DNA from: an uncultured virus (IMG/VR IMGVR_UViG_3300002835_000042)
Lineage: Duplodnaviria > Heunggongvirae > Uroviricota > Caudoviricetes
Reading direction: 5' to 3' (one strand)
Virus record (IMG/VR): IMGVR_UViG_3300002835_000042
Length of the DNA: 56,514 bases
In this document: positions 22,463-55,839 of the stretch, piece after piece
How the letters are laid out: each line of letters opens with the position of its first letter
How positions within the stretch are numbered: the first letter of the stretch is position 1
Notes under the pieces: model-generated
Seen by the model: the letters and a program-made list of their open reading frames with translations, nothing else
Told to the model about the DNA's origin: nothing
Databases searched by the model: none
Program-made: the position numbers and the translations under genes

Positions 22463-22488
22463 AGTCCTGGGTATGACTAAAACTGCCC
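22463..22488 (+). ncRNA. H-type pseudoknot element, copy 1
   Basis: AGTC-CT-GGGTA-T-GACT-AAAAC-TGCCC. Confidence 0.7.
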
Positions 22489-22512
22489 TTAAAAACATGT
22501 TATAATAAAATC

Positions 22513-23304
22513 ATGAAATCAATCTATGATATTCCTCTAAACTCAGCAGAAGGCACCCCAAACCACCTTGAACAATACAAAGGCAAGGTTACACTGGTAG
22601 CAAATACCACAGTCGGTTGCGGTAACGCCAACCAACTAGAAGTTTTACAGATGCTTCAAGATAAGTATAACAGCGAAGATTTTGAAATAATTGCTATACC
22701 AACAAACGACTACTGCGGTCCAGGAGTTACCAAAGGAAGATGGTCACAAGGAATTACTTGTGGTTTAGATTCAAAAGCCTACGGGGAAGAAATTTACAAT
22801 ACAACCTTTAAGTACTCAGAGATGGTTTCTTCGGTTCCTCATGAGTTACTAAACGAAGTGTTAGAGAACGGACTTAGCGCTGGAACTAACGGACTAGGAC
22901 AACCAACACTACCACCTCACGAAGTATATGCAGAAATTTCATCACAGATGAAAATGTTACAGTTAATGAGAGATTCTTTAGAAGATGGGAATGTTGAAGG
23001 AAAATTTAAATCACCTTGGCTAAACATTGGATTTTATGATGGAGTTCAAATGGGTGGCAATTATGAGAAGTATTTGATTGATAAGGACGGCTATGTTATG
23101 AAACATTTTACATGCACAGTCTTAAATTATGACATAGAAAAAACCTTAAAAGAGGCTCTAATTGCAGAAGGAAAGAACCCAGCGATGGGCTCTGACAGAT
23201 CTCCAGAAATCTTTGAAGAAGAGTTTGCCTTTGTTTGTTCTGAAATTGAAAAGGCTATTGCGGGAGCAAGATCTGCCCTTAATCCATCCTTAGCAAAAAT
23301 ATAA
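22513..23304 (+). CDS. glutathione peroxidase-like protein
   Basis: YKGKVTLVANT..GCG, IAIPTND, NYEKYLID. Confidence 0.8.
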   Translation: MKSIYDIPLNSAEGTPNHLEQYKGKVTLVANTTVGCGNANQLEVLQMLQDKYNSEDFEIIAIPTNDYCGPGVTKGRWSQGITCGLDSKAYGEEIYNTTFKYSEMVSSVPHELLNEVLENGLSAGTNGLGQPTLPPHEVYAEISSQMKMLQLMRDSLEDGNVEGKFKSPWLNIGFYDGVQMGGNYEKYLIDKDGYVMKHFTCTVLNYDIEKTLKEALIAEGKNPAMGSDRSPEIFEEEFAFVCSEIEKAIAGARSALNPSLAKI

Positions 23305-23314
23305 TACACACTTA

Positions 23315-23343
23315 TTGACAGACACACCTTGTTCTGCTATAAT
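23315..23343 (+). promoter_or_regulatory. consensus sigmaA promoter
   Basis: TTGACA-N17-TATAAT. Confidence 0.8.
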
Positions 23344-23373
23344 ATATGTATGCTACATTAACAAGGAGGAAGC

Positions 23374-24021
23374 ATGTCGGTAAAAGGTTCGGTAGAAGCA
23401 ATTATTGAAGTTGCAAAGAAAGAAGTAGGAACTATTGAAGGTCCTAAAGATAATGAAACAAAATATGGTAAGTGGACTGGTGTTAATTTCCAACCATGGT
23501 GCCAATCATTTGTTTCTTGGTGTGCATTTACATCAGGATTAAATCCAAAGAAGTATCCAAAGTCTGCATCAACCGTTGCAGCATCTGATTGGTTTAAGAA
23601 AAATGATCGTTGGGCAGATGCTCGTAATGACGACCCAACCCCAGGAGACTGGATCTATTTTGATTTCCCAGAAGACGGAGTAAATCGTATTTCACATGTT
23701 GGTATTTGCATTAAGAATAATGGAGATGGAACAATCCAGGTTATTGAAGGCAACACATCAGGCACTGCAAAGGGAGACCAGCGAAATGGCGGTATGTGCG
23801 TAGAAAAAACACGTGCATATGTAAAGAACAACAAGAAAAAACTAATCAATGGAGTTGTTGGCTGGGGTCGTCCAGTTTATACTGGCGAAGAAGATCTTCC
23901 ATTGCTAAACAAACTAGCAGAGCAACCAGTAGTACCCGCTAAGAAGTCTGTTAAGAAGGCTGCAAAGCCTGTTGTAAAGAAATCCGTAGGTGGCGGAGGA
24001 AAAGGAATGGTAGCACTATAA
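23374..24021 (+). CDS. CHAP-domain amidase (endolysin-like)
   Basis: PWCQSFVSW, PGD, SHVGI, IEGNTS. Confidence 0.85.
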   Translation: MSVKGSVEAIIEVAKKEVGTIEGPKDNETKYGKWTGVNFQPWCQSFVSWCAFTSGLNPKKYPKSASTVAASDWFKKNDRWADARNDDPTPGDWIYFDFPEDGVNRISHVGICIKNNGDGTIQVIEGNTSGTAKGDQRNGGMCVEKTRAYVKNNKKKLINGVVGWGRPVYTGEEDLPLLNKLAEQPVVPAKKSVKKAAKPVVKKSVGGGGKGMVAL

Positions 24022-24239
24022 TGGAGTCTAGAAGAAAGTCATTACTAAAAACTGCAAGTTGGCCATTTGTACACTTTACTTTTGTTTCTGGAATAATCTA
24101 TTTCGTACTTAAGTATTACACTGGAGAGGCAGAGTGGGAGTATGTTGGTCTATATGGACTGTCATATCTAGCACTAGAAATGACTTTCTTCTATATTCAT
24201 GAAAGAGTTTGGTCAAAATTTGGTGGGAGAATTAAATAA
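24021..24239 (+). CDS. DUF2061-like membrane protein
   Basis: ESRRKSLLKTASW...YIHERVW. Confidence 0.7.
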   Translation: MESRRKSLLKTASWPFVHFTFVSGIIYFVLKYYTGEAEWEYVGLYGLSYLALEMTFFYIHERVWSKFGGRIK

Positions 24240-24348
24240 TGAGAATAAAAATAATTAAGTTTATCGTAAAAGCATTAGGGTATGAGTGGTCTGGAGACCA
24301 ATTAAACCTACCAGTATGGCAAGTAAAGGCTAAAACGAAAAAGAAATA

Positions 24349-24534
24349 ATGCCATCATATGAATATGACTGTATGTCTTGTGCAATAAGATATACAAAGA
24401 TTAGGTCTATGTCCGAAAACGATCCAGGGTATCAATGTGAGACTTGCAATCAGTCCCTAGTTCGTGTATACTCTAATATAGGAGTCACATTCAATGGCTC
24501 TGGATTTTATAAAACCGACAATCGGAAGGTATAA
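24349..24534 (+). CDS. FmdB-family zinc-ribbon protein
   Basis: MPSYEYDCxxC...CxxC...FNGSGFYKTD. Confidence 0.85.
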   Translation: MPSYEYDCMSCAIRYTKIRSMSENDPGYQCETCNQSLVRVYSNIGVTFNGSGFYKTDNRKV

Positions 24535-24535
24535 T

Positions 24536-24763
24536 ATGTTTACAATGCTTAAAGATGATGTAAAACCAGAATGGAAATTGTCACCTTTAAATAGATGCGA
24601 TAGGTGCAATGCGGAAGCCCTGGTTCAAGTAACTGGGTTAAACGGAGACTTGCTATTTTGTGGTCATCACTATAATAAAATCATGGATAATGCAGTAGGC
24701 TATGACAAAATGATGAAGTTTGCTATAACAATTATTGATGAACGAGAAAAACTTGCTCAATAA
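24536..24763 (+). CDS. small actinobacterial-type Zn-binding protein
   Basis: RCDRC...FCGHH. Confidence 0.65.
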   Translation: MFTMLKDDVKPEWKLSPLNRCDRCNAEALVQVTGLNGDLLFCGHHYNKIMDNAVGYDKMMKFAITIIDEREKLAQ

Positions 24764-25593
24764 TGAATATTCATTACATGCTAAGAGAGTCCCAACTTCC
24801 TCTTGATGCTCTTTCTCATTACCTAGAAGAATGTGGCTATAAGTCAGTTTTGTTAACTTTTCATTCACAACAACCAGACTATTTTGTAAAGTCTGCTGCT
24901 TCTCTTACCCCTGGCCACAAACTAAAATATATGATTGCACTAAGACCGTATCATGTAAGTCCTCAGTATCTTTCAATGATGACTAAAGCATATAATGAGA
25001 TAGAAAGTAACAGACTTATAATTAATTGGATTGCTGGTGATTTTCATAATAGATCAGATGAGCCAGATATAGAGTTAGATGTTTTTTTAGAATCAGAACC
25101 AATAGATACTATACAAAAAAGAACTACATTTTTAAGAAATTTTGTAAAAATGTATAAACTTTACTGTCCAGTTTCTGAAAGACCTCCTATGGTTTTTAGC
25201 GGATACTCTGATTACACCTTAGAGACTGTAAAAATTCATGGGGGAACATCGCTATGCATGTTGGATACATATAGAGAGAATATAAAAAAGTTTGACGGAA
25301 TTGAAAAAAGAATGGTCAGCGCAAATGTTACCATCTTAGAATCAAACAAAGAGATTGAAGAGTATAAAGAAAAAATTATTCCTGCTAATCCTAGACACAT
25401 AAACTTTTCAATTATTGGAGACTATCAAACAGTTAAACAAAAGATAATTAATCTAAAGGATGAGGGAATAACTGATTTGCTACTGTTTACGAATACAGAA
25501 ATTTTAGACTCAGACTGGAACCAACAGAACGATATAAGAGTAAATAGACTTGTTAAAGAAATAAATAGTGAGGATGCAGAAAATGATAGTTAG
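24763..25593 (+). CDS. luciferase-like monooxygenase family protein (divergent)
   Basis: KYMIALRPYHVSPQYL...RLIINWIAG resembles LLM/SsuD. Confidence 0.6.
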   Translation: MNIHYMLRESQLPLDALSHYLEECGYKSVLLTFHSQQPDYFVKSAASLTPGHKLKYMIALRPYHVSPQYLSMMTKAYNEIESNRLIINWIAGDFHNRSDEPDIELDVFLESEPIDTIQKRTTFLRNFVKMYKLYCPVSERPPMVFSGYSDYTLETVKIHGGTSLCMLDTYRENIKKFDGIEKRMVSANVTILESNKEIEEYKEKIIPANPRHINFSIIGDYQTVKQKIINLKDEGITDLLLFTNTEILDSDWNQQNDIRVNRLVKEINSEDAENDS

Positions 25594-26167
25594 AGATAAA
25601 GAGTATAGTGCAGTACTTTTTGTTCACATACCAAAGACTGCAGGATCTTCAATTTCTAAAATATTAGATGAAAAAAATTTAGACAACTGGAAGAGAGAAT
25701 GGCCAAGGCATCACGATCCATACTCATATCTAAAAGAAGCAAACCTAATAGACGAGAGAGTCTTCTCTTTTGCTGTTGTAAGAAACCCCTACACAAGAAC
25801 CTATAGTTGCTACAAGCAATACAATAAAACTAATCAAACAGACATCTCTTTTGCACAGTACCTAGATAATATTAAACAGGGAAAAATATCTACAGTAAGC
25901 CCACTACTCCACATCCCCCAGTCTTTTTATATCATGGACCAGGATGATCTGCAGGTAGAGAGACTTTATAAGTTTGAGAACCTAAAAGAGTTAGAGGATG
26001 AACTCGGCTGGGAACTTGGATTTTACAATGTAGGCAACTATGTGGTAGAATCATATATACAAGAATATTCAGATGAGGCAATAAAAATGGTTCAGGATTT
26101 CTACAGTTCTGACTTTATTAACTTTGGATATTCTAAAGATTTTAATCAGACCCTGGAGGCAAAATGA
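25583..26167 (+). CDS. sulfotransferase family protein
   Basis: FVHIPKTAGSS (5'-PSB) and VRNPYTR (3'-PB) motifs. Confidence 0.8.
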   Translation: MIVRDKEYSAVLFVHIPKTAGSSISKILDEKNLDNWKREWPRHHDPYSYLKEANLIDERVFSFAVVRNPYTRTYSCYKQYNKTNQTDISFAQYLDNIKQGKISTVSPLLHIPQSFYIMDQDDLQVERLYKFENLKELEDELGWELGFYNVGNYVVESYIQEYSDEAIKMVQDFYSSDFINFGYSKDFNQTLEAK

Positions 26168-26727
26168 GAAAGACGCTAGAAGACTTTAACTTTAAGCAAC
26201 ACAGTAAGTATGATGTTGAGCCCATCAAAAACTATATAGATAGTTTTTCTGAAGAGTGGTTTATCAATACATCAAGACAAGATAACTACTATGTTCATAA
26301 AGATACTAACTCATACTTTGTCTATACCGCAGATCTTATGTGGAAAGAAGGAGAAGAATTTTCTACTCAGAAAACATCTAATGATACTGGGCTGCTTGAA
26401 ATTCTTGAGCCAATAATCTCAGACCTTGAAAGAATCCACAAGGGTGTCAGAGGTATGGTGCTTTTGATTAAGTTAAAAGCAGGTCAAGATATAGCACATC
26501 ATCATGATGCAGGAGACTATCTCATGCTTTCAAGAAGAAACCACATCCCAGTAGTTACTTCTGACAGTGTATTCTTTGGTGTAGGAGATGATAGGGTTAA
26601 GATGGGTACTGGAGAATGTTGGGAAATAAACAACTCAAGAACTCACTATGTAAATAATGGCAGTGAAATAGATAGGGTGCATTTGTTAATTGACATTATG
26701 CCAAACACAGAGATAGGGAAAAAATGA
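26164..26727 (+). CDS. Asp/Asn beta-hydroxylase-like 2OG-Fe(II) oxygenase
   Basis: HHD...RNHIP...WEINNSRTH.V.N...RVHLLID. Confidence 0.8.
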   Translation: MRKTLEDFNFKQHSKYDVEPIKNYIDSFSEEWFINTSRQDNYYVHKDTNSYFVYTADLMWKEGEEFSTQKTSNDTGLLEILEPIISDLERIHKGVRGMVLLIKLKAGQDIAHHHDAGDYLMLSRRNHIPVVTSDSVFFGVGDDRVKMGTGECWEINNSRTHYVNNGSEIDRVHLLIDIMPNTEIGKK

Positions 26728-27482
26728 TTATTCAGATTATTGGTCTGCCAGGTGCAGGCAAGACAGAGTTGGCCAAGGCACTCAAAGAAAGAATTAACGC
26801 CATTCACCTTAATGCAGATGAGGTCCGTGCAACAGTAAACTCAGACTTAGGTTTTAGCCCTGAAGATAGAATTGAACAGGCAAGACGTATGGGGGACATG
26901 GCAAGACTTATTGCTAAGCAGGGAGTTGCTCCAGTAATCGTTGACTTTGTATGCCCTACCGACTTGACTCGTGCAGCATTTGGCAATCCAGATATTTTAA
27001 TTTGGGTAGACAGAATTGAGTCTGGAAGATTTGAAGATACAAATAAGATGTGGGAAGATCCAGAGTCATGCGATGTCAGAATCCCCTGTGGCATGACCGT
27101 AGAAGAAGAGGCTGACCTTATCATTACTGCTTGCCAGTTACACGACTGGACAGCCCCTACAACCCTTATGCTGGGCAGATATCAGCCATGGCATGAAGGA
27201 CATCACGCTCTTTACAAAGAGGCAGGGAAAAGAACAGAGCAGGTACTTCTTGGAGTACGTAATACATACAATACAAGTGAAAAAGATCCACTTAAGTTTG
27301 ATCAGGTAAAGGAATATATTGCCAAGGATGAATTTATGGATGGGGCATTAGTGCTAAGACTACCTAACATTACTAATATTGTATATGGTAGAGATGTGGG
27401 ATACAAGATTGAACAAGTAGATTTGGGGGCAGACATTCATGCTATATCGGCTACGCAAAAACGTAAAGAGATGGGTATCTAA
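26724..27482 (+). CDS. APS-kinase-like domain fused to HIGH-type nucleotidyltransferase
   Basis: GLPGAGKT, LNADEVR, DLGFSPEDR; GRYQPWHEGH, ISATQKR. Confidence 0.8.
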   Translation: MIIQIIGLPGAGKTELAKALKERINAIHLNADEVRATVNSDLGFSPEDRIEQARRMGDMARLIAKQGVAPVIVDFVCPTDLTRAAFGNPDILIWVDRIESGRFEDTNKMWEDPESCDVRIPCGMTVEEEADLIITACQLHDWTAPTTLMLGRYQPWHEGHHALYKEAGKRTEQVLLGVRNTYNTSEKDPLKFDQVKEYIAKDEFMDGALVLRLPNITNIVYGRDVGYKIEQVDLGADIHAISATQKRKEMGI

Positions 27483-27530: not shown

Positions 27531-27734
27531 ATGAAAGTAACCAAGGCTAGATCATTTGCCAAAGCATTAAGTTATCGCATATGGGGAACTCTTTCCTCTG
27601 TTGCTGTTGCCTATGTCATAACAAAAAATGCTGCTCTTTCCGTAACTATTGCGTTTTGGGAAACGGTAGTTAAAATATTCATTTACTACGCACATGAGCG
27701 TGGATGGAACTATATACAATGGGGAAGAAAATAA
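27531..27734 (+). CDS. DUF2061-like membrane protein
   Basis: RSFAKALSYR...YYAHERGW. Confidence 0.75.
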   Translation: MKVTKARSFAKALSYRIWGTLSSVAVAYVITKNAALSVTIAFWETVVKIFIYYAHERGWNYIQWGRK

Positions 27735-29278
27735 TGACAAAGAATATAGTTATTGTTGGTGGCGGAAGTGCTGGTTGGCTTACTGCCCTCAAAGCACAAA
27801 GGTCATACCCAGATCTAAACATAACAGTTATAGAGTCAACAGAAATAGGAATCTTGGGAGCAGGAGAAGGGTCTACCCCATACCTTGCAGACTTCTTTGA
27901 CCATTTAAATATTCCTTTATCTGACCTAATAAAAAATTGTGATGCAACTATTAAAAATGGAATCAAGTTTACAAATTGGAATAATGATGGAGAGTTTTAT
28001 TACCATGGTTTTTCTACAACAGATAGGTCGCTAGGCTTTGATGCTGTGTACGATAGGTATCTTTCTAATAGCCCTCTTGTTGCAGCAAGCATTGCTTTAA
28101 ATAATAGCGTAAAGAAGATAGACTTTACAGAAAAAATTTCAGAAGCCAACAAGGTTCCATTCACTTTGGAAGCAAACAAGAGAGATTTCGGTTTTGTATC
28201 TAAAAAAGATCCTATAGATGATTATAAAAAAATAGGAAATATTTCTATACATTTTAATGCTACCAAACTAGCAAATAGACTAAAAGAAATAGGAATAGAA
28301 AGAGGAATCAAAGTAGTTGATGGCACAATAAAAAATGTCTCACTAGATAAAGATAACTATGTAAATGGTTTAACTTTAGAAAATGATGAAAAGATTATGT
28401 GTGATTTTGTTTTTGATTGTAGCGGATTTCATAGGCTAATCATTGGGAAAGTATATGATGCTAAATGGAAAAGTTACAAAGATTTCCTTCCAGTAGACTC
28501 TGCTATTCCATTTTTTGTTGAGATGACAGATAAGATTCCATCCTACACAGAAGCAATTGCTATGAAATACGGATGGATGTGGAAGATTCCACTCCAGAAC
28601 AGGTTTGGCTGTGGGTATGTCTACGACTCATCCCTTATCTCTGAAGAAGAAGCAGTGAAAGAGATAGAAGAGTTCTTAGGCTATGAGCCAACCTATCCAA
28701 GAAAAGACAAGGGTGGCTTTAAGTTTAATGCTGGATGCTATGAAGAGCCCTGGATCAATAACTGTGTTGCGGTAGGCCTTGCAGCAAACTTTGTTGAGCC
28801 ACTAGAAGCAACATCAATTTGGGTTAGCATTGTAGAGTTGACACAGATATTTGACAATCCGCTATGGCTATTCGAGAACTCGAAAGAGATAAGACAAGAG
28901 TTTAACAAGAACATAGTTAGTATGAACAATAATATTTCTGAATTTATATATTTTCACTATATGACTTTAAGAAATGATACAGAGTTTTGGAAAAAGTTTT
29001 CATATGAGAATGCACCAAAAGATCTGCAAGAAAAAATTAGCAAGTGGAAGGTCAGACTTCCAAACAAGTTTGACTCTGGAGAGCACTGGTCATCAAATAG
29101 TTGGACCTTTGTAGGCTCTGCACACAACACAATTAATAAAGATATTGCAAAAGCATATATAGAAAATTCTGCAGACTATAAAAAGGGTGCTGATATGTAT
29201 GACTATTACAAGAAATATCAAGACTACAAGGTGTCAGAATGTATAGATCATAGACAATTTTTGGAGGGATTAAAATGA
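27734..29278 (+). CDS. tryptophan halogenase-like flavoprotein
   Basis: VGGGSAGW, GAGEGST, FDCSGF, WMWKIP, FVEPLEATSI. Confidence 0.9.
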   Translation: MTKNIVIVGGGSAGWLTALKAQRSYPDLNITVIESTEIGILGAGEGSTPYLADFFDHLNIPLSDLIKNCDATIKNGIKFTNWNNDGEFYYHGFSTTDRSLGFDAVYDRYLSNSPLVAASIALNNSVKKIDFTEKISEANKVPFTLEANKRDFGFVSKKDPIDDYKKIGNISIHFNATKLANRLKEIGIERGIKVVDGTIKNVSLDKDNYVNGLTLENDEKIMCDFVFDCSGFHRLIIGKVYDAKWKSYKDFLPVDSAIPFFVEMTDKIPSYTEAIAMKYGWMWKIPLQNRFGCGYVYDSSLISEEEAVKEIEEFLGYEPTYPRKDKGGFKFNAGCYEEPWINNCVAVGLAANFVEPLEATSIWVSIVELTQIFDNPLWLFENSKEIRQEFNKNIVSMNNNISEFIYFHYMTLRNDTEFWKKFSYENAPKDLQEKISKWKVRLPNKFDSGEHWSSNSWTFVGSAHNTINKDIAKAYIENSADYKKGADMYDYYKKYQDYKVSECIDHRQFLEGLK

Positions 29279-34320: not shown

Positions 34321-34420
34321 TCCGTCATGATACATGCAGTTGCTTATAGCAACCTTATTGCTGAGTACGGAGGACCAGGGTCATTACCTGGGGGACCTGA
34401 GCAAGTCTATTAAACTGCTC
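34321..34420 (+). ncRNA. candidate structured small RNA ending in pseudoknot copy 2 (34393-34420)
   Basis: TATAAT upstream; TCCGT/ACGGA, GTTGCT/AGCAAC and CCAGG/CCTGG stems; GAC-CT-GAGCA-A-GTC-..AAAC-TGCTC. Confidence 0.5.
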
Positions 34421-45900: not shown

Positions 45901-45905
45901 CCTTT

Positions 45906-46834: not shown

Positions 46835-47068
46835 TATTTGTGCTCCCCTGTATATCCAGTTAGGCCACCTGATAGTGCACCAAGAAACCAAATGATAGCC
46901 AAAATTCCTAGAATAATTTCCATTACTCTTGCTCCTTAAAAGATACGATTGATAGTTGGTTTAATATTTCATTGCAGAGGTCCGCCTCATTATCTGACTC
47001 AGCCTCATATTTAAAATGCATGTAGTCGCCTGTGGGTTCAAAGATAACTTCTACAGTATATTCATTCA

Positions 47069-48488: not shown

Positions 48489-48491
48489 ATA

Positions 48492-48731
48492 TTAATTATA
48501 CGGGTTAGAGTTGATTTTTACAACCTCACGGGGTGTGACCTTAATCACAGGCTCGTAGTCAGGGGTAGGATCCTCATCCACATGGGTAACAGTTGCATCC
48601 CATTTGCTTAATAGGATTACATGAGATGATGCATGGCAAATACAGGCGGGATCAATCTGAGGCTCAACAGATGCAGTAATCTCTATAAGAGCATCACAGT
48701 CTGTACATAGATAAGTAAACTTAGTCCACAT
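48492..48731 (-). CDS. hypothetical Zn-binding protein
   Basis: CTDC...CIC. Confidence 0.5.
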   Translation of the reverse strand: MWTKFTYLCTDCDALIEITASVEPQIDPACICHASSHVILLSKWDATVTHVDEDPTPDYEPVIKVTPREVVKINSNPYN

Positions 48732-49033
48732 TATTCTCCCCAATACTTTACAATAGTTTCCATTGTGATATGTAGGTTGCAGTCACAGGGCTCTCCACCC
48801 ATGTTCTCTTCAAATTCAAAGTGCGATAGGTTGTCCTCGTAGATTTCGCATACGAGTTCGTTTATGGTGTATGGTTTGTATGTTTGGGTCATGTATTAAT
48901 TATTGCAGAAAACCTGGGAAATGTCAAGCCTATCGTAAAGATTTTTGGTTTTGACATTTTTGGGGATTTATAATAGTCTTCGTAAAGATTTTTAGATTTG
49001 ACATTTTTATATGCATGTGCCGGGGCGCATTTG

Positions 49034-49109
49034 CGATTCCGATGGGATTTGAACCCACGATCTCTACAGTGACAGTGTAGCGATTTAAACCAGACTAATC
49101 TACGGAACC
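49034..49109 (-). tRNA. tRNA-Asp(GTC)
   Basis: CTACA-CTGTCAC-TGTAG; GGTTCAAATCC; acceptor GGTTCCG/CGGAATC. Confidence 0.9.
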
Positions 49110-49116
49110 AATTGGT

Positions 49117-49143
49117 GAGCAGTTTTTATTCTTGCTCAGGAAT
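49117..49143 (-). ncRNA. H-type pseudoknot element, copy 3
   Basis: ATTC-CT-GAGCA-A-GAAT-AAAAAC-TGCTC. Confidence 0.7.
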
Positions 49144-49152
49144 TTTTTTTAT

Positions 49153-50169
49153 TTATGCAATCTGCAAAACATTTTGCACAACTTTTAGCAGACGATTTTT
49201 TTCTGCATTGATAGCAGGGTCAAAACCGCTTGCGCTTGCAAGAATTGATTCGTTAGAACCACCACGAGCAGAGCGATACCAATCAAGGCGTTCTGTTAGT
49301 GCATTGAAAGCACCCCAAGCGTTTCCAGCAATCATGCCATTGAATTCGCCTGTGTAGATGTCATTGATAACATCAACCTTGTTTTCCCACTTCTTGAAAG
49401 CACCCTTAGAATCTTTCTCAGGCTTAGGATAAGCAGCGAGAATGATGTCATTGAATTGCTGAGCGGATACTTCTTTCTGAATCATAGCGTTAGCCATAAC
49501 ATCAAAAGAATCCATGTACTTATGGGCAAGACCCAAAGTTTCACGAGCAACGGCAACCTTACCAGAAGCGGTCTGAGTGTGGCGAATCTTGAAAGATTGC
49601 TTGACACCATTCTTTTTCTTGAGTGAGCCAAGTGCAAGATTGAGAGTGTTAGCGCACACAACACGAACAGGTGTAATGCTTGCTTGAATAGCGATTGAGC
49701 CGTCATGTGATGTATTGATAAGTAAATAAGTCTTGACCTTATCTGCAACACCGCTAGGGTCTAGAATTGTTTCACGCTCTAGTGCTAATGCACCGAACAC
49801 GACACGACCACCCTTGATTGAGCCAGCCGTTTCCCAACGACCTCCGCCGTCTAGAATGTTATCACCGAATGAAAATAAATCTTCGTTCTGCATAACATGA
49901 TAACGCTCACCAACGACACCAAGAATGTCGGTCTGAGAGTTGTCAGTAGGATTGGTACGCAATACATACTGATAGTTTTTATCGCTTGATAAATGTGAGG
50001 GGGTTTCCAAATCTTCCAGACGAACATTCCAATTAGAAAGATTAGCCAAATCTAACATTTCTTTTGTTGTTTTTTCTTCTGTAAATACGGTACCCAATCC
50101 ATGCCAAGCGGGTTCACGAAATGATGCGAATGAAGCCTTACCATTTTGTGTTTCGATTTCATGTGCCAT
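49153..50169 (-). CDS. DUF932 family phage/plasmid protein (TIGR03299-like)
   Basis: MAHE..REPAWHGLG, ETAGS..GG, YLL..SHDGS, TPVRVVCANTL, RHT. Confidence 0.85.
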   Translation of the reverse strand: MAHEIETQNGKASFASFREPAWHGLGTVFTEEKTTKEMLDLANLSNWNVRLEDLETPSHLSSDKNYQYVLRTNPTDNSQTDILGVVGERYHVMQNEDLFSFGDNILDGGGRWETAGSIKGGRVVFGALALERETILDPSGVADKVKTYLLINTSHDGSIAIQASITPVRVVCANTLNLALGSLKKKNGVKQSFKIRHTQTASGKVAVARETLGLAHKYMDSFDVMANAMIQKEVSAQQFNDIILAAYPKPEKDSKGAFKKWENKVDVINDIYTGEFNGMIAGNAWGAFNALTERLDWYRSARGGSNESILASASGFDPAINAEKNRLLKVVQNVLQIA

Positions 50170-50201
50170 GAGTTTTCTCCTTTTGTTGTTGTTGAATTTC
50201 A

Positions 50202-50223
50202 AGTATAGCAGTATGGGCTGACA
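50202..50223 (-). promoter_or_regulatory. RecA-NDp/PafBC-type promoter
   Basis: TGTCAG-cccatactgc-TATACT. Confidence 0.7.
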
Positions 50224-50335
50224 AATGCAAATCGGGATAGTTAAACATGGACAAATTGGACATTTCTTAAAGTGATCTTAATCACACGGCGTGTCGCTTG
50301 ACAAATCAAAGTTTGCGGGGCCGGAAATTTTTATT

Positions 50336-50364
50336 GAGCAGTTTACATGGCCGTGCTCAGGGCC
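50336..50364 (-). ncRNA. H-type pseudoknot element, copy 4
   Basis: GGCC-CT-GAGCA-C-GGCC-ATGTAAAC-TGCTC. Confidence 0.7.
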
Positions 50365-50410
50365 CTTGCCTAGTTTAGAGACATTCGACATGTCTATTAG
50401 TAGCCCCCTA

Positions 50411-50833
50411 CTAAATGTCTACTCTATCAATTGAGGATGATAGATAAGAAATTGAATCACTGTTGTAGTCGACGGTATCAAAATCAATATCGTGAATTGC
50501 ATTCTGTGCTTCTTCTTCATTACGTGCATTAACTGTAACCGAGTACATTACTGTAACTTCTACTTCAAATTCTTTTGTTAAATCAAATCCGCAAATCATT
50601 GCAATTTCTTCCGCCTGTGATTCTGTGATATCGCTAGCGTCCAAGGCCTCTAAGGTCCACTCTTGCATTTCATTACGCATACGGTTACGCTCTGCAGCCT
50701 CACCATATGAGCGCTGAGTTACTTTTTGAATGTGCTCGTGTAGTTGCTGAATTTCTACCTTAGCACTTTCGATTTGTGACTTAAGAAAGTCTTCTGTTGC
50801 ATGTACTACTGGTGTTTCTATTGACTGGTCCAT
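50411..50833 (-). CDS. acidic hypothetical protein
   Basis: 140 aa; GAAAGAGG RBS. Confidence 0.6.
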   Translation of the reverse strand: MDQSIETPVVHATEDFLKSQIESAKVEIQQLHEHIQKVTQRSYGEAAERNRMRNEMQEWTLEALDASDITESQAEEIAMICGFDLTKEFEVEVTVMYSVTVNARNEEEAQNAIHDIDFDTVDYNSDSISYLSSSIDRVDI

Positions 50834-50865
50834 GGGGGCCTCTTTCTGTTAGTTGGTTTAAATTA

Positions 50866-50887
50866 ATTATACTAGGTACCGCTGACA
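50866..50887 (-). promoter_or_regulatory. RecA-NDp/PafBC-type promoter
   Basis: TGTCAG-cggtacctag-TATAAT. Confidence 0.7.
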
Positions 50888-50978
50888 AATTATAGGATCC
50901 CCAGGGAACACTTGCTAACCATAGCGTGGAGCGCAGGGGATAATGAGTGGGGCTTTTACACCCCACCCAATTATTTAA

Positions 50979-51470
50979 TTAAAGACTTACAAAGACTATA
51001 ACAAATACCAAAATGGAAAGAGTAATGGCATTTCGCACAAACTTCCTTTGCGCCTCTTTGCGGTTTTTCTCTAATTGGGCAGACTGTTCTTCAGGAGTAA
51101 GTCTGTCAAAGGCTTCTTGTGCTTCCTTTAATTGTTGAACTCGTGCAAGCCTATCTGCTTCTTTTCTTTCTGCTCTTTCTTTCTTAGCCTTTGCATATGC
51201 CGCATCTATTTCTTCCTTTGTGCAAGGGTATTGTTCAACTGAGTATCCTAAGACATCTCTTACTTGAGCCAAAAGGTTGGGCTCTGTTGCTCCGTTTTTA
51301 ATATTGTCCCAAGAGTTGCCCCATTCTTCGCTCCACTTTTCCCATTCAAATCTTTTGTATGCTTCTAAATCTTCTGCTGGGGTTTCTGACATTTCTTTTC
51401 TAATTTTGTTTTTTAATAGAACAAAATTCTCTACTGGCTTTAATATTGTGATTTCCAAATCGTTTGACAT
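50979..51470 (-). CDS. coiled-coil protein with C-terminal TM anchor
   Basis: 163 aa with hydrophobic C-terminus. Confidence 0.6.
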   Translation of the reverse strand: MSNDLEITILKPVENFVLLKNKIRKEMSETPAEDLEAYKRFEWEKWSEEWGNSWDNIKNGATEPNLLAQVRDVLGYSVEQYPCTKEEIDAAYAKAKKERAERKEADRLARVQQLKEAQEAFDRLTPEEQSAQLEKNRKEAQRKFVRNAITLSILVFVIVFVSL

Positions 51471-51498
51471 TTCATTCCTTTGTTAGTAATTTTAGGGT

Positions 51499-51525
51499 GA
51501 GCAGTTTAGCAACATACTCAGGTTG
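51499..51525 (-). ncRNA. H-type pseudoknot element, copy 5
   Basis: CAAC-CT-GAGTA-T-GTTG-CTAAAC-TGCTC. Confidence 0.7.
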
Positions 51526-51537
51526 TTTATTATCTAA

Positions 51538-51960
51538 TTATAGATAACGAGCAACTGCGTTGTAGGTAGAAGTATTGACTACTTCCTCATCTGTCATCTT
51601 TAGGATACGAATTGCGTTAGACATTTCCTCTTTTTGAGAGTTGTATTCGTGGCGGTGGATTTGCTCAAAACCACGCTCAGGCTCTTTTGGAAAGTCTGTG
51701 CCATTTGTTTTGATGTCAAAATCAACATTGAGGCTTTCGTTCCAAGAACGATAGTTAGTTCTGATGTTGTCAGCCTTGCTAAATTGAGCAACTGCCCACT
51801 TAGCAATTTCCTTCTGCCACTTCTCGTATTGCTTTTGATACTTTGCTTCGTTCTCGTCTTGTGTTTTGTAGTTAGCCTCTAGTTCTGCTAACTTTGTTTC
51901 TAGTGCCTTGATAACTTTTACTGTGGGTATCTTTACACTAATTGCTTTTCCTCTTGACAT
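51538..51960 (-). CDS. hypothetical protein
   Basis: 140-aa ORF with RBS and promoter. Confidence 0.65.
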   Translation of the reverse strand: MSRGKAISVKIPTVKVIKALETKLAELEANYKTQDENEAKYQKQYEKWQKEIAKWAVAQFSKADNIRTNYRSWNESLNVDFDIKTNGTDFPKEPERGFEQIHRHEYNSQKEEMSNAIRILKMTDEEVVNTSTYNAVARYL

Positions 51961-51995
51961 TGGGTCTTTTTCCTTTTCTATTAGTTGGGGGTTCT

Positions 51996-52017
51996 ATCAT
52001 AGCACTTTGCTCTGACA
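51996..52017 (-). promoter_or_regulatory. RecA-NDp/PafBC-type promoter
   Basis: TGTCAG-agcaaagtgc-TATGAT. Confidence 0.7.
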
Positions 52018-52025
52018 ATTTTGGT

Positions 52026-52055
52026 GAGCAGTTTTTGTAGTCATACTCAGGACTA
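52026..52055 (-). ncRNA. H-type pseudoknot element, copy 6
   Basis: TAGTC-CT-GAGTA-T-GACTA-CAAAAAC-TGCTC. Confidence 0.7.
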
Positions 52056-52070
52056 TTAGCGTTTGCTAAA

Positions 52071-52235
52071 TTACTTGGCTGTCCAAGTTGTGTATCGTGG
52101 CTTGCCATTTACATCTAACTTGACACGAACATTTCCGTTAGCCTGTGGTGTGATTTCTGTGATGATACCACTTACCTTTGACTTTTGAGTTGTGTAGGTG
52201 TCGCCTACTTTGTAAGTTGCGGTTGCTACTGACAT
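52071..52235 (-). CDS. small basic beta-barrel-like protein (54 aa, not in the ORF track)
   Basis: MSVATATYKVGDTYTTQKSKVSG...; GAAAGAGG RBS. Confidence 0.6.
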   Translation of the reverse strand: MSVATATYKVGDTYTTQKSKVSGIITEITPQANGNVRVKLDVNGKPRYTTWTAK

Positions 52236-52332
52236 TTGTTTCCTCTTTCTGTTAGGGTTTTGCTTACTGTATAATTATGACATTTCTTGGGAAAAATGTC
52301 AAATCTAATTTGAGATTTCTCAAATAGTGAGA

Positions 52333-52503
52333 TTACTTGCTGGTCTTGACCATAGCCAAACGGCGTGAGCCATTTGCTAGAACTAGACTAACTCTGGTAA
52401 GTTTATTAGACATTGGCTCAAAACTAGCAATACGACCTGTAATGCCTGTCTTGCTTGTCGTGAATAAATCACCAATCTGATAGGTGTATCCTCCGAGGGT
52501 CAT
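52333..52503 (-). CDS. small basic protein, paralog of 52071..52235 (56 aa)
   Basis: MTLGGYTYQIGDLFTTSKTGITG...; GAAAGG RBS. Confidence 0.6.
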   Translation of the reverse strand: MTLGGYTYQIGDLFTTSKTGITGRIASFEPMSNKLTRVSLVLANGSRRLAMVKTSK

Positions 52504-52735
52504 TTGTTCTGCCTTTCTGTTATGGGGTTTTGCTTATAGTATAATTCTAGCAGAAAAATGTCAAAAATACCAATCGGGCGAGGGATTTGGGGTGTGTCCT
52601 TAATCACATCTTAAAGGTGTGTTGCGACTTGACAGATCAAACAAAACGGGCCGGGGCCTCCAAAAAATTATTGATAGAAAAATAACAGTAATAAAAAGAA
52701 TGCTAAGAACATCCATTGTGTTGAATTCATTTATC

Positions 52736-53458
52736 TCATTTCTTACTCGATGAAAAAATTATGTCGCTCTTAGAGTATACACAAAGAGAGCAAGAAACGC
52801 AAGCGCTTCCACTAGTTGAGATAAGTGGAATTTGTTTATTATTCTCAGGACACTTAGCAGCAGGCTTACCAATCATTTCTTTTATGTCTGCTTTACCAAT
52901 AGCAAAATTCTTAGCAAGGTACGCCATGCGTATGCCACTATTAATTTTTAAGTCTACTGCGGTTTTGACATTCTCGCTATCTGCAGAAAAATATAGACTT
53001 AGATTATCAATACCCTTGAGCATTAGAGCAGCAGAGGCAACACGAGTGTATACCCAGAATTGAATTTCAGGATGATTAAGGATTACAGTCTTCCATGCGT
53101 TGGTGTAATTATCATTAAAGAAATCTCCGTCCCAATGGATACGGAATAATTTAGGAGCGTCTTTTTTATTACAATCAGCAACAAAATCAATAATCATCTC
53201 ATCGATAAGAGCAACCATAGTATCATAGTTGGCGTCTTTAAGCAATGACCAATTGTGTAGCAGATTAGTTTTTACTGCGGGGAATAGTCTTTCGAGTTTT
53301 CCTGCGTAGCATACGCTTTCACAAACACTAGTGGCACCAGGGCACGAGTAAGCCTTACCAGCAGGCAATCCAAAAGTGTTGGCGATACTTGCTTGCTTTC
53401 CATTTTTTGTGACAAGGTTAGCCACCTTTCTATCTTTAGAGCGTTTTAGTTGGGTCAT
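52736..53458 (-). CDS. GP88-like (radical-SAM-like Fe-S) phage protein
   Basis: CPGATSVCESVCYA, FRIHWDGDF, WVYTR, C-terminal CP...CVSCSLC. Confidence 0.7.
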   Translation of the reverse strand: MTQLKRSKDRKVANLVTKNGKQASIANTFGLPAGKAYSCPGATSVCESVCYAGKLERLFPAVKTNLLHNWSLLKDANYDTMVALIDEMIIDFVADCNKKDAPKLFRIHWDGDFFNDNYTNAWKTVILNHPEIQFWVYTRVASAALMLKGIDNLSLYFSADSENVKTAVDLKINSGIRMAYLAKNFAIGKADIKEMIGKPAAKCPENNKQIPLISTSGSACVSCSLCVYSKSDIIFSSSKK

Positions 53459-53480
53459 GGGGTCCTACTTTCTTTTTTCA

Positions 53481-53502
53481 ATCATATCACTAGGGTCTGA
53501 CA
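53481..53502 (-). promoter_or_regulatory. RecA-NDp/PafBC-type promoter
   Basis: TGTCAG-accctagtga-TATGAT. Confidence 0.7.
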
Positions 53503-53661
53503 TTTTTTTCCTATTGTAAGTTTTCTTTGACGGAACGCTTGAGGCAGCATTAGATCTACGCAATTCCATAAGTCTGCGTAATTCCTCGGGCGTTTTCTTT
53601 TGTGTCATAAACTAATCTTAGCAGACTTCAGCAAAAATGTCAAAACGACACGCCGGGGCGC

Positions 53662-54126
53662 CTACACGGCAATTAAGTGTCGTCTTTTTCTAGTAGTTGT
53701 TGGTGCAATTGCGTGATGCATTTTGCATAACACTCTGCACTTTGCTATTTCTTGTTCTACAATTTCCCAAGGATACTTTTTGGTTTGTTGCAACATTGTA
53801 GAAACTGCTGCAAGTTTTAGTGTTGGGTTAATATGGTCAAGTTCAAGTTGTTTGTGGTCTGTAATTTTATACTCACAACCACCTTCCCACTCACAACCTT
53901 TACTCATTTTAATTCTTGCAACTTTTTGTCTTCTAACATTTCCTACAACCACCATTTTTTTTGCAGCATTGTTTTTATATGTCTTGTTGCAGTATTCACA
54001 CCAGATAGTTCCTTTTAGTTCTGGATGTTTTTCTAGGTGCTTTTCTAAAACTATTTTGTGAGATTGAGATTGTGGAGTTATCTGAATCTCACAATATGTG
54101 CAGCGAACAATAGTATTATTACTCAT
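53662..54126 (-). CDS. HNH-like endonuclease with N-terminal Zn finger
   Basis: LELDHINP...EIAKCRVLCKMHH; same family as 34565..34840. Confidence 0.65.
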   Translation of the reverse strand: MSNNTIVRCTYCEIQITPQSQSHKIVLEKHLEKHPELKGTIWCEYCNKTYKNNAAKKMVVVGNVRRQKVARIKMSKGCEWEGGCEYKITDHKQLELDHINPTLKLAAVSTMLQQTKKYPWEIVEQEIAKCRVLCKMHHAIAPTTTRKRRHLIAV

Positions 54127-54361
54127 ATGTTTCTATAAAGACATACAAAGGAATTGAATCGGTGTATGAATAAGTGGCAAACTCTAACTCATCAAACTCA
54201 TTCTTAGTCTGAATAGTCCAATTGTCTGCGGTTGAATCACTTTCAATAAACATAACCTCAACAATGTCATCACCAACTTTAATTAAATCGCCAATCATTA
54301 ACTGATCTGGCTTGAGTTCATCTGCATAAATTAGTTCCATGCTATTTATTGTATCAGACAT
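54119..54361 (-). CDS. acidic hypothetical protein
   Basis: ORF track; RBS at the end of the upstream gene. Confidence 0.5.
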   Translation of the reverse strand: MSDTINSMELIYADELKPDQLMIGDLIKVGDDIVEVMFIESDSTADNWTIQTKNEFDELEFATYSYTDSIPLYVFIETYE

Positions 54362-54362
54362 T

Positions 54363-54578
54363 TTACTTTCCTCCAACTGTTCCGTTGCGATAAAAAATCT
54401 TGGTGTGCATTTTGCCACTAGGCTCTGAGAAATTATAGGTTGCGTATTCATCTGCGAATCCCCAATCTACAATTTTATTCCATTCTGATACTGCGCTAAT
54501 TGCGTCTGAATAACGACCAACCCATTGTGGTGCAGTATCGTTATCATAGGTTGCGGTAATTGCGTATGAGTATTCCAT
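54363..54578 (-). CDS. hypothetical protein
   Basis: 71 aa; GAAAGGG RBS. Confidence 0.55.
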   Translation of the reverse strand: MEYSYAITATYDNDTAPQWVGRYSDAISAVSEWNKIVDWGFADEYATYNFSEPSGKMHTKIFYRNGTVGGK

Positions 54579-54579
54579 T

Positions 54580-54876
54580 TTAGTATTCCCTTTCAATAAG
54601 CCACGCATTTAGGTGGTGTGATTCAATAATAGACCATGCGGGGGCAGTAGTCAAACCTCTCCAAGATACGCCTTGAGGTAGTGGTATTTCTAAGTCCCAT
54701 AGTCCTAAGTCATTTACTGCGTCAATAGCCTCAATACAAGGTGCGACCATTTCTTTAGGCACTGGAGGATAGTGATTACTAGATAGGTGAATTGCTATCT
54801 GTGTTTCAATATCTAATTGGATACCTAATTCAGCAAGAGTTCCGTCTGCCATTTCATTAGCGAAATTACTTCCCAT
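54580..54876 (-). CDS. hypothetical protein
   Basis: HLSSNHYPPVP; AAGGAGG RBS. Confidence 0.6.
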   Translation of the reverse strand: MGSNFANEMADGTLAELGIQLDIETQIAIHLSSNHYPPVPKEMVAPCIEAIDAVNDLGLWDLEIPLPQGVSWRGLTTAPAWSIIESHHLNAWLIEREY

Positions 54877-54877
54877 T

Positions 54878-55117
54878 TTAGTAAGCCTCCTTGCTTCCAA
54901 AGATAGCCAATTCAGGCTCACTTAGCAAACCATTATCCCAAATAACATCTCCGTCATCATCAAGAATAATATCATAAGTATTACACTCACAAGTTTCTGT
55001 GTCGTAGTCCTCGCCATTTCCCCAATAGAGGTGTCCTCTACCTTCGCAAATAAAACAAGAGCGAATTGCGCTTAGTGCGTAGTCTAGTTTATCCATTTTT
55101 TCCTTCTTTCTGTTCAT
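54878..55117 (-). CDS. small Zn-binding hypothetical protein
   Basis: CFICEG...CEC. Confidence 0.55.
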   Translation of the reverse strand: MNRKKEKMDKLDYALSAIRSCFICEGRGHLYWGNGEDYDTETCECNTYDIILDDDGDVIWDNGLLSEPELAIFGSKEAY

Positions 55118-55123
55118 ACTGAA

Positions 55124-55145
55124 ATCCTATCAGGTAGGGCTGACA
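55124..55145 (-). promoter_or_regulatory. RecA-NDp/PafBC-type promoter
   Basis: TGTCAG-ccctacctga-TAGGAT. Confidence 0.65.
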
Positions 55146-55165
55146 TTTTCAACCCTACCAAGCCC

Positions 55166-55663
55166 TTACCAAGACGAATGGTATGAAAAGGACAAATCGG
55201 ACAATTCGGGTAGAGCAAGAATACGCTCTAATTGCTCAATAGTATTCTCTAAATCTCTCCAATACCATTGGTCGATATCCGTTCCACCAAAGAAAAATCC
55301 TTCCTGTGGTGGCAATAGGCTAGGGTCTTTATTTTCTAGCGAGTGCTTACAAATAGCAAGCAATTCAATTAGTTTATCTTGTGATACATAGTAATCACCG
55401 CAGTCGTCAATTCCTTTTTGAACATTTTTGACAAACCAAGAGTGTATCTGATTAGCCTTGCGCCAATAAGCACAAGTGACTTCTACGCTTGCGCCATAGA
55501 TATCTGTTGCGACATTGGATAACTGTGTTAGTTCCATTAGATTATTGAATTGCGGATATACCGCTTCAGGTGAGTCATAAGATAATTCATCATTATCTCT
55601 TAGTGCGTTCCAATTCACTTTTTCCAAGTGCTTCTTGGCTTGTAAATACATATCTAATCCCAT
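55166..55663 (-). CDS. conserved phage hypothetical protein
   Basis: MGLDMYL...YWRKANQIHSWF...GFFFG...YHSSW. Confidence 0.75.
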   Translation of the reverse strand: MGLDMYLQAKKHLEKVNWNALRDNDELSYDSPEAVYPQFNNLMELTQLSNVATDIYGASVEVTCAYWRKANQIHSWFVKNVQKGIDDCGDYYVSQDKLIELLAICKHSLENKDPSLLPPQEGFFFGGTDIDQWYWRDLENTIEQLERILALPELSDLSFSYHSSW

Positions 55664-55693
55664 TAGTTTTCCTTTCATTAGGTTTAGGCTTCT

Positions 55694-55715
55694 AGCCTAT
55701 CATCTCCTACTGACA
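55694..55715 (-). promoter_or_regulatory. RecA-NDp/PafBC-type promoter
   Basis: TGTCAG-taggagatga-TAGGCT. Confidence 0.65.
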
Positions 55716-55813
55716 TTTTCAATTCGACACGCCGTAAAATCTGGGGGAATCTTAAAATGTGTCGTAAATCACCCTGTGTATAACCCTGTGGAAGACACGC
55801 CGGGATTTTTGTT

Positions 55814-55839
55814 GAGCAGTTTTAGATCATGCTCAGGAT
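55814..55839 (-). ncRNA. H-type pseudoknot element, copy 7
   Basis: ATC-CT-GAGCA-T-GAT-CTAAAAC-TGCTC. Confidence 0.65.

What the first reader, a model, noticed from the sequence alone, without database searches (positions are those of the whole stretch)
22463..55839. Seven dispersed copies of a compact H-type pseudoknot with fully covarying stem 1
Seen: consensus [P1]-CU-GRGYA-N-[P1']-N(1-4)AAAC-UGCYC at 22463(+), 34393(+), 49117(-), 50336(-), 51499(-), 52026(-) and 55814(-). P1 differs between copies but always pairs: AGUC/GACU, GAC/GUC, AUUC/GAAU, GGCC/GGCC, CAAC/GUUG, UAGUC/GACUA, AUC/GAU. P2 also covaries (GGGUA/UGCCC vs GAGCA/UGCUC). Every copy is on the transcribed strand, downstream of a stop codon or candidate sRNA; one sits just before tRNA-Asp. 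Inference: a selected RNA (or ssDNA) structure that could act as a 3' exonuclease block, processing signal, non-canonical terminator or protein-loading site (compare the T4 gene 32 pseudoknot; this phage has a gp32-like SSB). The architecture recalls the STAXI motif, which is normally tandem; I cannot confirm identity.
Basis: partly seen in the sequence, partly recalled or inferred. Interest (0 to 1): 0.85.

Follow-up and report, generated by a model that had tools for sequence, protein, structure and literature searches.

The report
Coremin-type RNA knot between phage genes
The seven repeats are real copies of a tiny knotted RNA fold that many phages and some bacteria place just past the end of a gene; it is a variant of the plant-virus 'coremin' knot that stops RNA-degrading enzymes and sliding ribosomes, and probably works as a similar roadblock on bacterial messages, though nobody has tested that.

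Summary
Confirmed: seven 26-30-nt H-type pseudoknots on the coding strand (0 in 200 shuffles). Hundreds of relatives in phages of many host phyla show covariation in both stems and near-fixed loops (CU; AAAC). No Rfam family covers it; it is not STAXI. Its core (GUC/GAC stem, C...A loop, AAACU) is that of the coremin Xrn1-resistant RNA of plant viruses; here an 8-nt loop forms five Watson-Crick pairs. Exact tetraloop and hexaloop coremins occur in DNA phages at the same kind of site (terminator, knot, scaffold gene), so the forms look interchangeable. True stop codons show a hard edge 9 nt before the loop, the reach of a terminating ribosome; no readthrough signal. In anaerobic bacteria the knot overlaps a HCxxGC leader peptide before Rrf2/ferritin/peroxiredoxin genes, suggesting a ribosome-gated switch. 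Best reading (about 0.45): a roadblock to 5'-to-3' RNA machines; main rival (0.28): a 3' cap. Some hosts lack RNase J, others Rho. Function untested.

The parts
22463..22488 (+). Pseudoknot copy 1 (P1 AGUC/GACU, P2 GGGUA/UGCCC), 9 nt after the stop of the 290-aa protease-like ORF; an extended -10-like TGTTATAAT follows
34394..34420 (+). Pseudoknot copy 2 (P1 GAC/GUC, P2 GAGCA/UGCUC), 91 nt after the Hsp20 stop, at the end of a conserved hairpin-rich stretch; TGTTACAAT follows
49117..49143 (-). Pseudoknot copy 3 (P1 AUUC/GAAU), 13 nt after the DUF932 stop, 7 nt before tRNA-Asp
49033..49109 (-). tRNA-Asp(GUC) directly 3' of copy 3
50336..50364 (-). Pseudoknot copy 4 (P1 GGCC/GGCC), 50 nt after a stop, behind two small hairpins
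51499..51525 (-). Pseudoknot copy 5 (P1 CAAC/GUUG, P2 GAGUA/UGCUC with a U-G pair), 16 nt after a stop, 28 nt before the next start codon
52026..52055 (-). Pseudoknot copy 6 (P1 UAGUC/GACUA), 20 nt after a stop; TTGTCA-17-TATGAT follows
55814..55839 (-). Pseudoknot copy 7 (P1 AUC/GAU), 10 nt after the stop of a 33-codon ORF

Best explanation
Each copy folds in the phage mRNA into a compact H-type pseudoknot of the coremin family (3-5-bp P1 closed by C-G, loop C-U, 5-6-bp P2, one bulged base, and an A-rich strand ending AAAC that packs on P1). SHOWN here: the fold, its strand, its conserved loops, its placement just beyond the reach of a ribosome on a stop codon and at least 15 nt before the next start, and its interchange with true coremins at one kind of site. 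INFERRED: like coremin it is a roadblock to machines that move 5'-to-3' along RNA: RNase J-type decay where the host has it, and ribosomes (possibly Rho or scanning RNase E) that slide on past a stop. It thereby insulates and protects the RNA downstream (next gene, tRNA, ribozyme or other ncRNA) from the fate of the gene upstream. It must sit outside coding regions because an elongating ribosome would unfold it. INFERRED further: some anaerobic bacteria use that weakness as a switch, with the knot inside a cysteine-pair leader peptide so that it survives only when the ribosome halts at or before the second Cys codon.
For: Core shared with coremin GUCCGAAGACGUUAAACUAC, which stalls Xrn1 and scanning ribosomes and tolerates 6-8-nt loops; 182 of 347 hits carry UAAACU and 43 GUUAAACU. 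Tetraloop coremins occur in phage contigs before head scaffolding genes (8 of 8 tested, picked by eye from 42 distinct matches; 7 directly behind a U-tract); 74 of 108 distinct 6-nt-loop matches are coremin-type and 19 are Watson-Crick type with 3-4 pairs; the 8-nt form precedes scaffolding genes in 4 of 83 downstream ORFs and in Lj771 and D6E. Where a terminator lies directly upstream (13 of 248 within 100 nt, 6 within 10 nt; downstream 3 of 248) only the downstream RNA can carry the knot. True stops: 8 at 0-8 nt, 42 at 9 nt, 23 at 10 nt among 263 hits, while non-coding stop triplets are flat at 10-23 per position from 4 to 10 nt. Next start with SD within 40 nt in 90 of 291 against 7 on the other strand. 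One L3 base covaries with a P1 pair (A-U with A 30 of 33; C-G with U 19 of 23). Leader class: loop C 11 nt after the last Cys codon in 10 of 10 parsed loci; stop inside the knot in 99 of 117; downstream Rrf2 15, ferritin 3, peroxiredoxin 2 of 42.
Against: No activity was measured. Two features that coremin needs are absent: G at loop position 2 (0 of 128) and a second hairpin (27 of 150 against 45 and 43 in controls). RNase J was not found in 10 of 32 motif-bearing genomes nor in 31 of 31 genomes of the phylum of G018; Rho passed its cut-off in only 17 of 32; true copies lie in crAss-like and Moraxella phages. In Ma-LMM01 the genes upstream are about 6-fold higher than the gene downstream (log2 FPKM 12.19 vs 9.56 at 6 h; one site, and that gene has its own listed promoter). 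Copies before tRNAs (20 of 347, many orthologous), hammerheads (3 of 302) and promoter-like sites (3 of 7 in the window, read from sequence) fit a 3' cap as well or better. Only 53 of 106 leader loci have a same-strand gene downstream (crude calling).
Confidence: 0.45

Rival explanations
1. 3' cap: after cleavage or Rho-type termination downstream (RNase P at a tRNA, a hammerhead, an AU-rich RNase E/Y site), PNPase or RNase R trim back to the knot, which stabilises the upstream message, as REP hairpins do (recalled).
For: Tight link to the upstream stop; G-poor AU-rich 3' flank (G 8% in the first 8 nt; 5 or more T in 56 of 248); tRNA 0-13 nt downstream in 20 hits, upstream in 4; hammerhead core downstream 3, upstream 0 of 302; Ma-LMM01 step down; needs no RNase J or Rho; upstream genes include Hsp20 (4), SSB (2), major head protein.
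Against: Useless directly behind an intrinsic terminator, between two tRNAs (L504) or just before a terminator in stand-alone leader loci; the tested relative works from the 5' side.
Confidence: 0.28
2. Binding site for a host or phage protein or for RNA polymerase (a gene-32-like loading site or a put-like antiterminator).
For: Loop bases are nearly fixed (CU 119, AAAC 118 of 128); one copy lies before an SSB gene, one behind a phage promoter (L232); terminators follow some leader copies without overlapping them.
Against: The fixed bases are those coremin needs for its own fold; flanking genes are of all kinds; hosts span many phyla.
Confidence: 0.12
3. Weak non-canonical terminator or pause signal.
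For: U-rich tail in 56 of 248; promoter-like sites follow 3 of 7 window copies; Ma-LMM01 step down.
Against: Strict promoter matches follow in only 14 of 248 while genes or tRNAs follow within 40 nt; P2 alone is only 5-6 bp.
Confidence: 0.08
4. Self-cleaving ribozyme or small-ligand aptamer.
For: Conserved bases cluster at the helix junction; neighbours include hammerheads and tRNAs.
Against: About 27 nt with no conserved flanks, smaller than known natural self-cleaving ribozymes (recalled); no expression platform; no common gene theme in phages.
Confidence: 0.05
5. Stop-codon readthrough or frameshift stimulator.
For: Spacer of 5-6 nt from stop to P1 equals that of recoding pseudoknots (recalled).
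Against: Stops are mostly UAA (79 of 121), the frame stays open through the knot in only 55 of 121 and extension lengths are scattered; many copies are far from any stop.
Confidence: 0.02

Closest known systems
Coremin motif / xrRNA-C (Dilweg et al. 2019, PMC6546385; Dilweg et al. 2023, PMC10520033)
   Same: 3-5-bp first stem closed by C-G, loop starting with C and with A next to last, spacer ending AAACU, frequent place near stop codons and in tandem; loops of 6-8 nt are known and active.
   Different: Loop position 2 is U, not the required G; the base after AAACU is G and pairs Watson-Crick; five P2 pairs replace the second hairpin; found in DNA phages and bacteria. The 2023 paper has no occurrence of 'phage' or 'bacteri'. 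Earlier notes of this scan name a Watson-Crick variant 'xrRNA-WCC'; I saw no paper on it.
GP20-b RNA (Rfam RF03003)
   Same: Small pseudoknot-like units with AAAA linkers before phage scaffold genes; its 5' half aligns weakly on this motif (18-21 bits, cut-off 36.2).
   Different: Different loop sequence; two units; true GP20-b hits lie downstream of a separate hexaloop coremin (L847, L865).
STAXI RNA (Rfam RF01728; PMC2864571)
   Same: H-type pseudoknots in mobile DNA.
   Different: STAXI units have a 5-nt UGAGA loop, a UUCG hairpin in the third loop, a CCAAU lead-in and come two or three in tandem; no match here.
PhotoRC-II RNA (Rfam RF01717)
   Same: Cyanophage pseudoknot with GAGAC/GUCUC second stem and an AAAU/AAAC linker.
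   Different: Longer first loop ending ACC, 5-bp P1, tied to photosynthetic reaction centre genes; no Rfam match to the window or loci.
Luteovirus and MMTV frameshift pseudoknots; T4 gene 32 pseudoknot (recalled)
   Same: Compact H-type fold, short first loop, A-rich third loop; same spacing from a ribosome's A site.
   Different: No slippery site, follows stop codons, no readthrough signal; no tie to SSB genes.
Cys-codon leader-peptide attenuators (uORFC-8-2, PMC8632094)
   Same: Short uORF with two conserved Cys codons ahead of regulated genes, as in the cellular class.
   Different: There a terminator hairpin is the switch; here the knot overlaps the uORF and any terminator lies apart.

Membership tests
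Coremin / xrRNA-C | First hairpin of 3-5 bp, structure over sequence | tested here: met
   P1 pairs 100-101 of 101 at three positions, 78 of 101 at the fourth
Coremin / xrRNA-C | Loop starts with Y and has A next to last, D last | tested here: met
   First loop base C in 125 of 128 when left free, last base A/U/G in 116 of 128; the A was fixed by my patterns
Coremin / xrRNA-C | G at loop position 2 (YGAD / YGNNAD) | tested here: not met
   G in 0 of 128; U in 119
Coremin / xrRNA-C | Spacer AAACUA with essential A after U | tested here: not met
   AAAC in 118 of 128, but next base after AAACU is G in 333 and A in 12 of 347 (set biased by my patterns), pairing with the loop
Coremin / xrRNA-C | Second hairpin directly after the spacer | tested here: not met
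   27 of 150 against 45 and 43 in control windows
Coremin / xrRNA-C | Stalls Xrn1 / scanning ribosomes | not testable with these tools
   Needs an assay
STAXI (RF01728) | Two or three tandem pseudoknots | tested here: not met
   All seven window copies are single; pairs occur in a few other loci (L075, L235)
STAXI (RF01728) | UGAGA second loop and UUCG hairpin in third loop | tested here: not met
   Seed alignment read; here one bulged base and an AAAC strand
STAXI (RF01728) | Rfam model score above 40.5 bits | tested here: not met
   No match at E up to 10 in window 48900-56514 or in 5 records; none at gathering in the whole window
GP20-b (RF03003) | Rfam score above 36.2 bits | tested here: not met
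   18.3-20.8 bits over the motif at scaffold loci; none in the window
GP20-b (RF03003) | Upstream of GP20-type scaffold genes | tested here: inconclusive
   True for 4 of 83 downstream ORFs of relatives, for none of the window copies
Intrinsic terminator | Strong hairpin followed by a U-tract, new promoter for the next gene | tested here: not met
   No window copy is in the terminator list for 40000-56514; U-tail in 56 of 248, promoter in 14 of 248
Readthrough / frameshift pseudoknot | Leaky stop or slippery site with an open frame beyond | tested here: not met
   UAA 79 of 121; open through motif 55 of 121

The most novel reading that the evidence does not exclude
The coremin fold is one RNA roadblock family shared by eukaryotic RNA viruses, DNA phages and bacteria. 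This Watson-Crick form is a general bacterial exoribonuclease-resistant RNA and ribosome bumper, used constitutively by phages at gene boundaries and as a ribosome-gated switch in anaerobes, where stalling at the second Cys codon of a HCxxGC leader peptide lets the knot form and turns on redox-stress genes without a terminator-antiterminator pair.
Probability: 0.3. Interest if true: 0.88.

Novelty: new variant of a known kind. Interest (0 to 1): 0.7.

Why it matters
Nuclease-blocking RNAs are known from eukaryotic RNA viruses; the papers I could read describe none in phages or bacteria. A 27-nt knot found in hundreds of phage contigs, in cultured phages of cyanobacteria, lactobacilli, staphylococci, Bacillus and Streptomyces, and interchangeable with exact coremins, would give a direct handle on how phages set message lifetimes and gene-to-gene stoichiometry, explain the function of an unsolved viral fold through natural compensatory variants, and supply a very small insulator part for bacterial gene circuits. 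The leader-peptide class would be a new kind of attenuation in poorly known anaerobes.

Tried and rejected
STAXI, GP20-a and other Rfam families: no match above cut-off in 8 Rfam scans and 3 family searches; one search used a wrong accession (lysM-Prevotella). DNA operator (TGAGCA...TGCTCA dyad): rejected because P1 covaries outside the dyad and U-G wobbles (99 of 347 at one P2 position) hold on one strand only. 'UAA is part of the motif': rejected by the flat profile of non-coding stop triplets. RNase J alone or Rho alone as the target: neither is found in all hosts (incomplete genomes). boxA likeness of TGCTC: rejected, P2 covaries. RNA reads: only assembled contigs were served; they cover the region, some run across copies, and one ends at 55813 beside copy 7, which is no evidence. 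My orientation classifier and hairpin finder were noisy, so convergent-gene counts are not used for phages. One blastn query hit nothing because I gave coordinates off the motif; E. coli genomes gave no match to one 35-nt query. An apparent absence from gammaproteobacterial phages failed: Moraxella phage Mcat1 has a true copy. The supplement of PMC5737381 (224 motifs) could not be read and three supplement files of PMC10690425 were not searched; either could hold this motif. bioRxiv supplements are closed.
Full report
OBSERVATION. The window is phage DNA (37.7% GC) with terminase, DnaB, primase, SSB, DnaE, RecA, WhiB, Hsp20 and four tRNAs; WhiB and weak matches to Streptomyces phages suggest an actinobacterial host, and RNA libraries holding part of it come from lake, aquatic and marine samples. 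All seven copies are there as described. The strict descriptor gives 7 hits and 0 in each of 200 shuffles; a loose one gives the same 7 against a mean of 0.22. A covariance model adds no eighth copy. Rfam at gathering level gives only tRNAs. Three related records of 98-116 kb carry 4-6 copies each.

THE FOLD IS REAL. The same kind of scan in cellular genomes gave 39 of 123, the rest being chance. In the 101 distinct viral matches of standard length P1 was unselected: pair 3:16 is kept in 101 of 101 (1.85 bits of mutual information, shuffle maximum 0.24) and pair 4:15 in 100 of 101. A scan that left four P2 positions free gave full P2 pairing in 94 of 120 distinct matches, with G-C, A-U, U-A and C-G exchanges. 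A scan that left the loops free gave CU in 119 and AAAC in 118 of 128. On a 99-sequence alignment 97.2% of cells pair with 180 double changes, 0 of 500 shuffles (the P2 variants in it were chosen for pairing). U-G wobbles at one P2 position (99 of 347) work only on the coding strand. One third-loop base follows the identity of a P1 pair, a hint of a base triple.

WHERE IT SITS. Of 291 viral hits, 160 have an upstream ORF ending within 20 nt (41 on the other strand), 90 have an SD and start within 40 nt downstream (7 on the other strand; only one closer than 15 nt), and 4 lie inside a long sense ORF. After removing near-duplicates (263 of 297), true stops number 8 at 0-8 nt from the first loop base, 42 at 9 nt and 23 at 10 nt, while stop triplets that end no ORF are flat. 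P1 therefore starts 5-6 nt after the stop, at the mRNA entry channel of a ribosome with the stop in its A site (geometry recalled). The stops are mostly UAA and no frame is kept beyond them, so this is exclusion from the ribosome, or contact with it, not recoding. tRNAs follow within 13 nt in 20 of 347 hits, half of them one orthologous tRNA-Asp site; hammerhead cores follow in 3 of 302 and precede in none. Strict promoter matches follow in 14 of 248; terminators follow in 3 and precede in 13. Flanking genes are of every kind (145 of 168 upstream ORFs were scanned). Cultured carriers checked by sequence include S-RIM4, S-H35, S-EIVl, Ma-LMM01, CrV, Lj771, D6E, Edson, ClubPenguin, cr7_1, CRP-6 and Mcat1.

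A CELLULAR CLASS. Eleven cellular hits lie at the end of a short ORF, M...R[PV][VIT]AHCx[ED]GC; in 10 of 10 parsed loci the first loop base is 11 nt after the last Cys codon. A metagenome scan for this arrangement, with that spacing fixed, gave 117 distinct loci; 63 pass my strict descriptor, most others have a variant junction pair, and the stop falls inside the knot in 99. Of 42 downstream ORFs tested, 15 are Rrf2, 3 ferritin, 2 peroxiredoxin, 1 flavin reductase-rubredoxin, 11 have no family. By the 9-nt edge, a ribosome waiting on the second Cys codon leaves the knot whole and one codon further starts to unfold it. That is an inferred switch; against it, only 53 of 106 loci have a same-strand gene downstream, so the peptide may be a product in itself.

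WHAT IT RESEMBLES. It is not STAXI: I read passages of PMC2864571 and part of its seed alignment, whose units have a UGAGA loop and a UUCG hairpin, and the model finds nothing. GP20-b overlaps weakly and PhotoRC-II looks alike but differs. Earlier notes of this scan, on other genomes, had found the same motif and named coremin. I read passages of PMC6546385 and passages plus one results part of PMC10520033: coremin is GUCCGAAGACGUUAAACUAC, needs YGAD or YGNNAD, the spacer bases AACUA and a second hairpin, tolerates 7- and 8-nt loops, and stalls Xrn1 and scanning ribosomes. The present motif shares stem, loop ends and AAACU, but has U for the loop G, G for the spacer A, five Watson-Crick pairs and no second hairpin: it works like coremin by inference and is not a member by the published rules. 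I then tested whether true coremins occur in phages. They do: of 42 distinct tetraloop matches, 8 that I picked precede head scaffolding genes (8 of 8), and of 108 distinct 6-nt-loop matches 74 are coremin-type and 19 Watson-Crick type, in contigs of all sizes, some again before scaffold-like genes. The 8-nt form occupies the same kind of site. This series from G-A to Watson-Crick forms at one site type is the strongest link to a tested function.

MECHANISM. I rank a 5'-to-3' roadblock first (0.45), because the tested relative acts that way and because copies directly behind terminators can serve only the downstream RNA. The moving machine cannot be one protein everywhere: RNase J was found in 22 of 32 motif-bearing genomes and in 0 of 31 of the phylum of G018, Rho passed its cut-off in 17 of 32; 31 of 32 have one or the other, which is expected of most bacteria and proves nothing; ribosomes are universal. 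The 3' cap, favoured by most earlier notes, is close behind (0.28): it fits copies before tRNAs, hammerheads and promoters, and the one expression data point, a roughly 6-fold drop across the Ma-LMM01 copy (four rows of a supplementary table of PMC5780444). A knot may do both. Protein or polymerase binding, weak termination, catalysis and recoding share the rest. Assembled RNA contigs could not show ends.

NOVELTY. No Rfam family and no paper found in ten searches describes the motif in phages or bacteria, but the searches did not use the word coremin, a Watson-Crick coremin is named in earlier notes without a source I could see, and key motif supplements were unreadable. Of PMC5737381, PMC10085705 and PMC8632094 I saw passages only; of PMC10690425 the listing and six supplement files. 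I file it as a new variant of a known kind. Interest 0.7.

Noticed in passing
L147, L149, L151, L173, L196, L203, L215, L229, L235, L237, L250; L550-L667: Family of 16-27-codon uORFs, M...R[PV][VIT]AHCx[ED]GC, overlapping the knot in Desulfobacterales, Aminicenantes, Omnitrophota and other anaerobes, before Rrf2, ferritin, peroxiredoxin and hybrid-cluster genes, or standing alone before a terminator; no NCBIfam match for one member.
   Followed up: partly
L700, L702, L704, L710, L738, L767, L769, L782; L807, L810, L847, L865: Exact tetraloop and hexaloop coremin motifs in dsDNA phage contigs ahead of head scaffolding genes, mostly right behind a terminator; the tetraloop class is followed by repeated GAGACAC...AAAACTG units.
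   Followed up: partly
window 34300-34530 (+): Two candidate small RNAs after hsp20: a hairpin-rich stretch ending in copy 2 (similar in L313) and a 95-nt stem with a U tail behind TGTTACAAT (z -1.9); no Rfam match.
   Followed up: partly
L557, L584, L605, L657: Leader-class knots that seem to carry whole hairpins inserted in the third loop, with AAACTGCCC appearing 40-60 nt later.
   Followed up: no
L006, L010, L029: Knot directly followed by a hammerhead core, then an SD and start codon.
   Followed up: partly
L047, L216: Knot directly 5' of DUF2800 RNA (RF02960, 140-160 bits).
   Followed up: no
window 26724-27482 (+), 25568-26727, 27704-29278: APS-kinase-domain gene beside sulfotransferase, Asp/Arg hydroxylase and tryptophan-halogenase-like genes; earlier notes call the first a miniature PAPS synthase.
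   Followed up: no
window 48700-56514 (-): Early-type region of short genes with sigma-70 promoters, repeated CGGCGTGTC / GACACGCCG words and DnaA-box-like TTCCACAGG / TTATACACAG near 55790.
   Followed up: no
window 31297-31578, 5995-9270, 9254-10270: WhiB, DnaE and RecA genes, with nearest cultured matches among Streptomyces phages, point to a large freshwater actinophage (inference).
   Followed up: partly
L528 near 1455-1490: crAss-like phage cr7_1 has a possible variant knot with a G-C top pair just upstream of the canonical copy.
   Followed up: no
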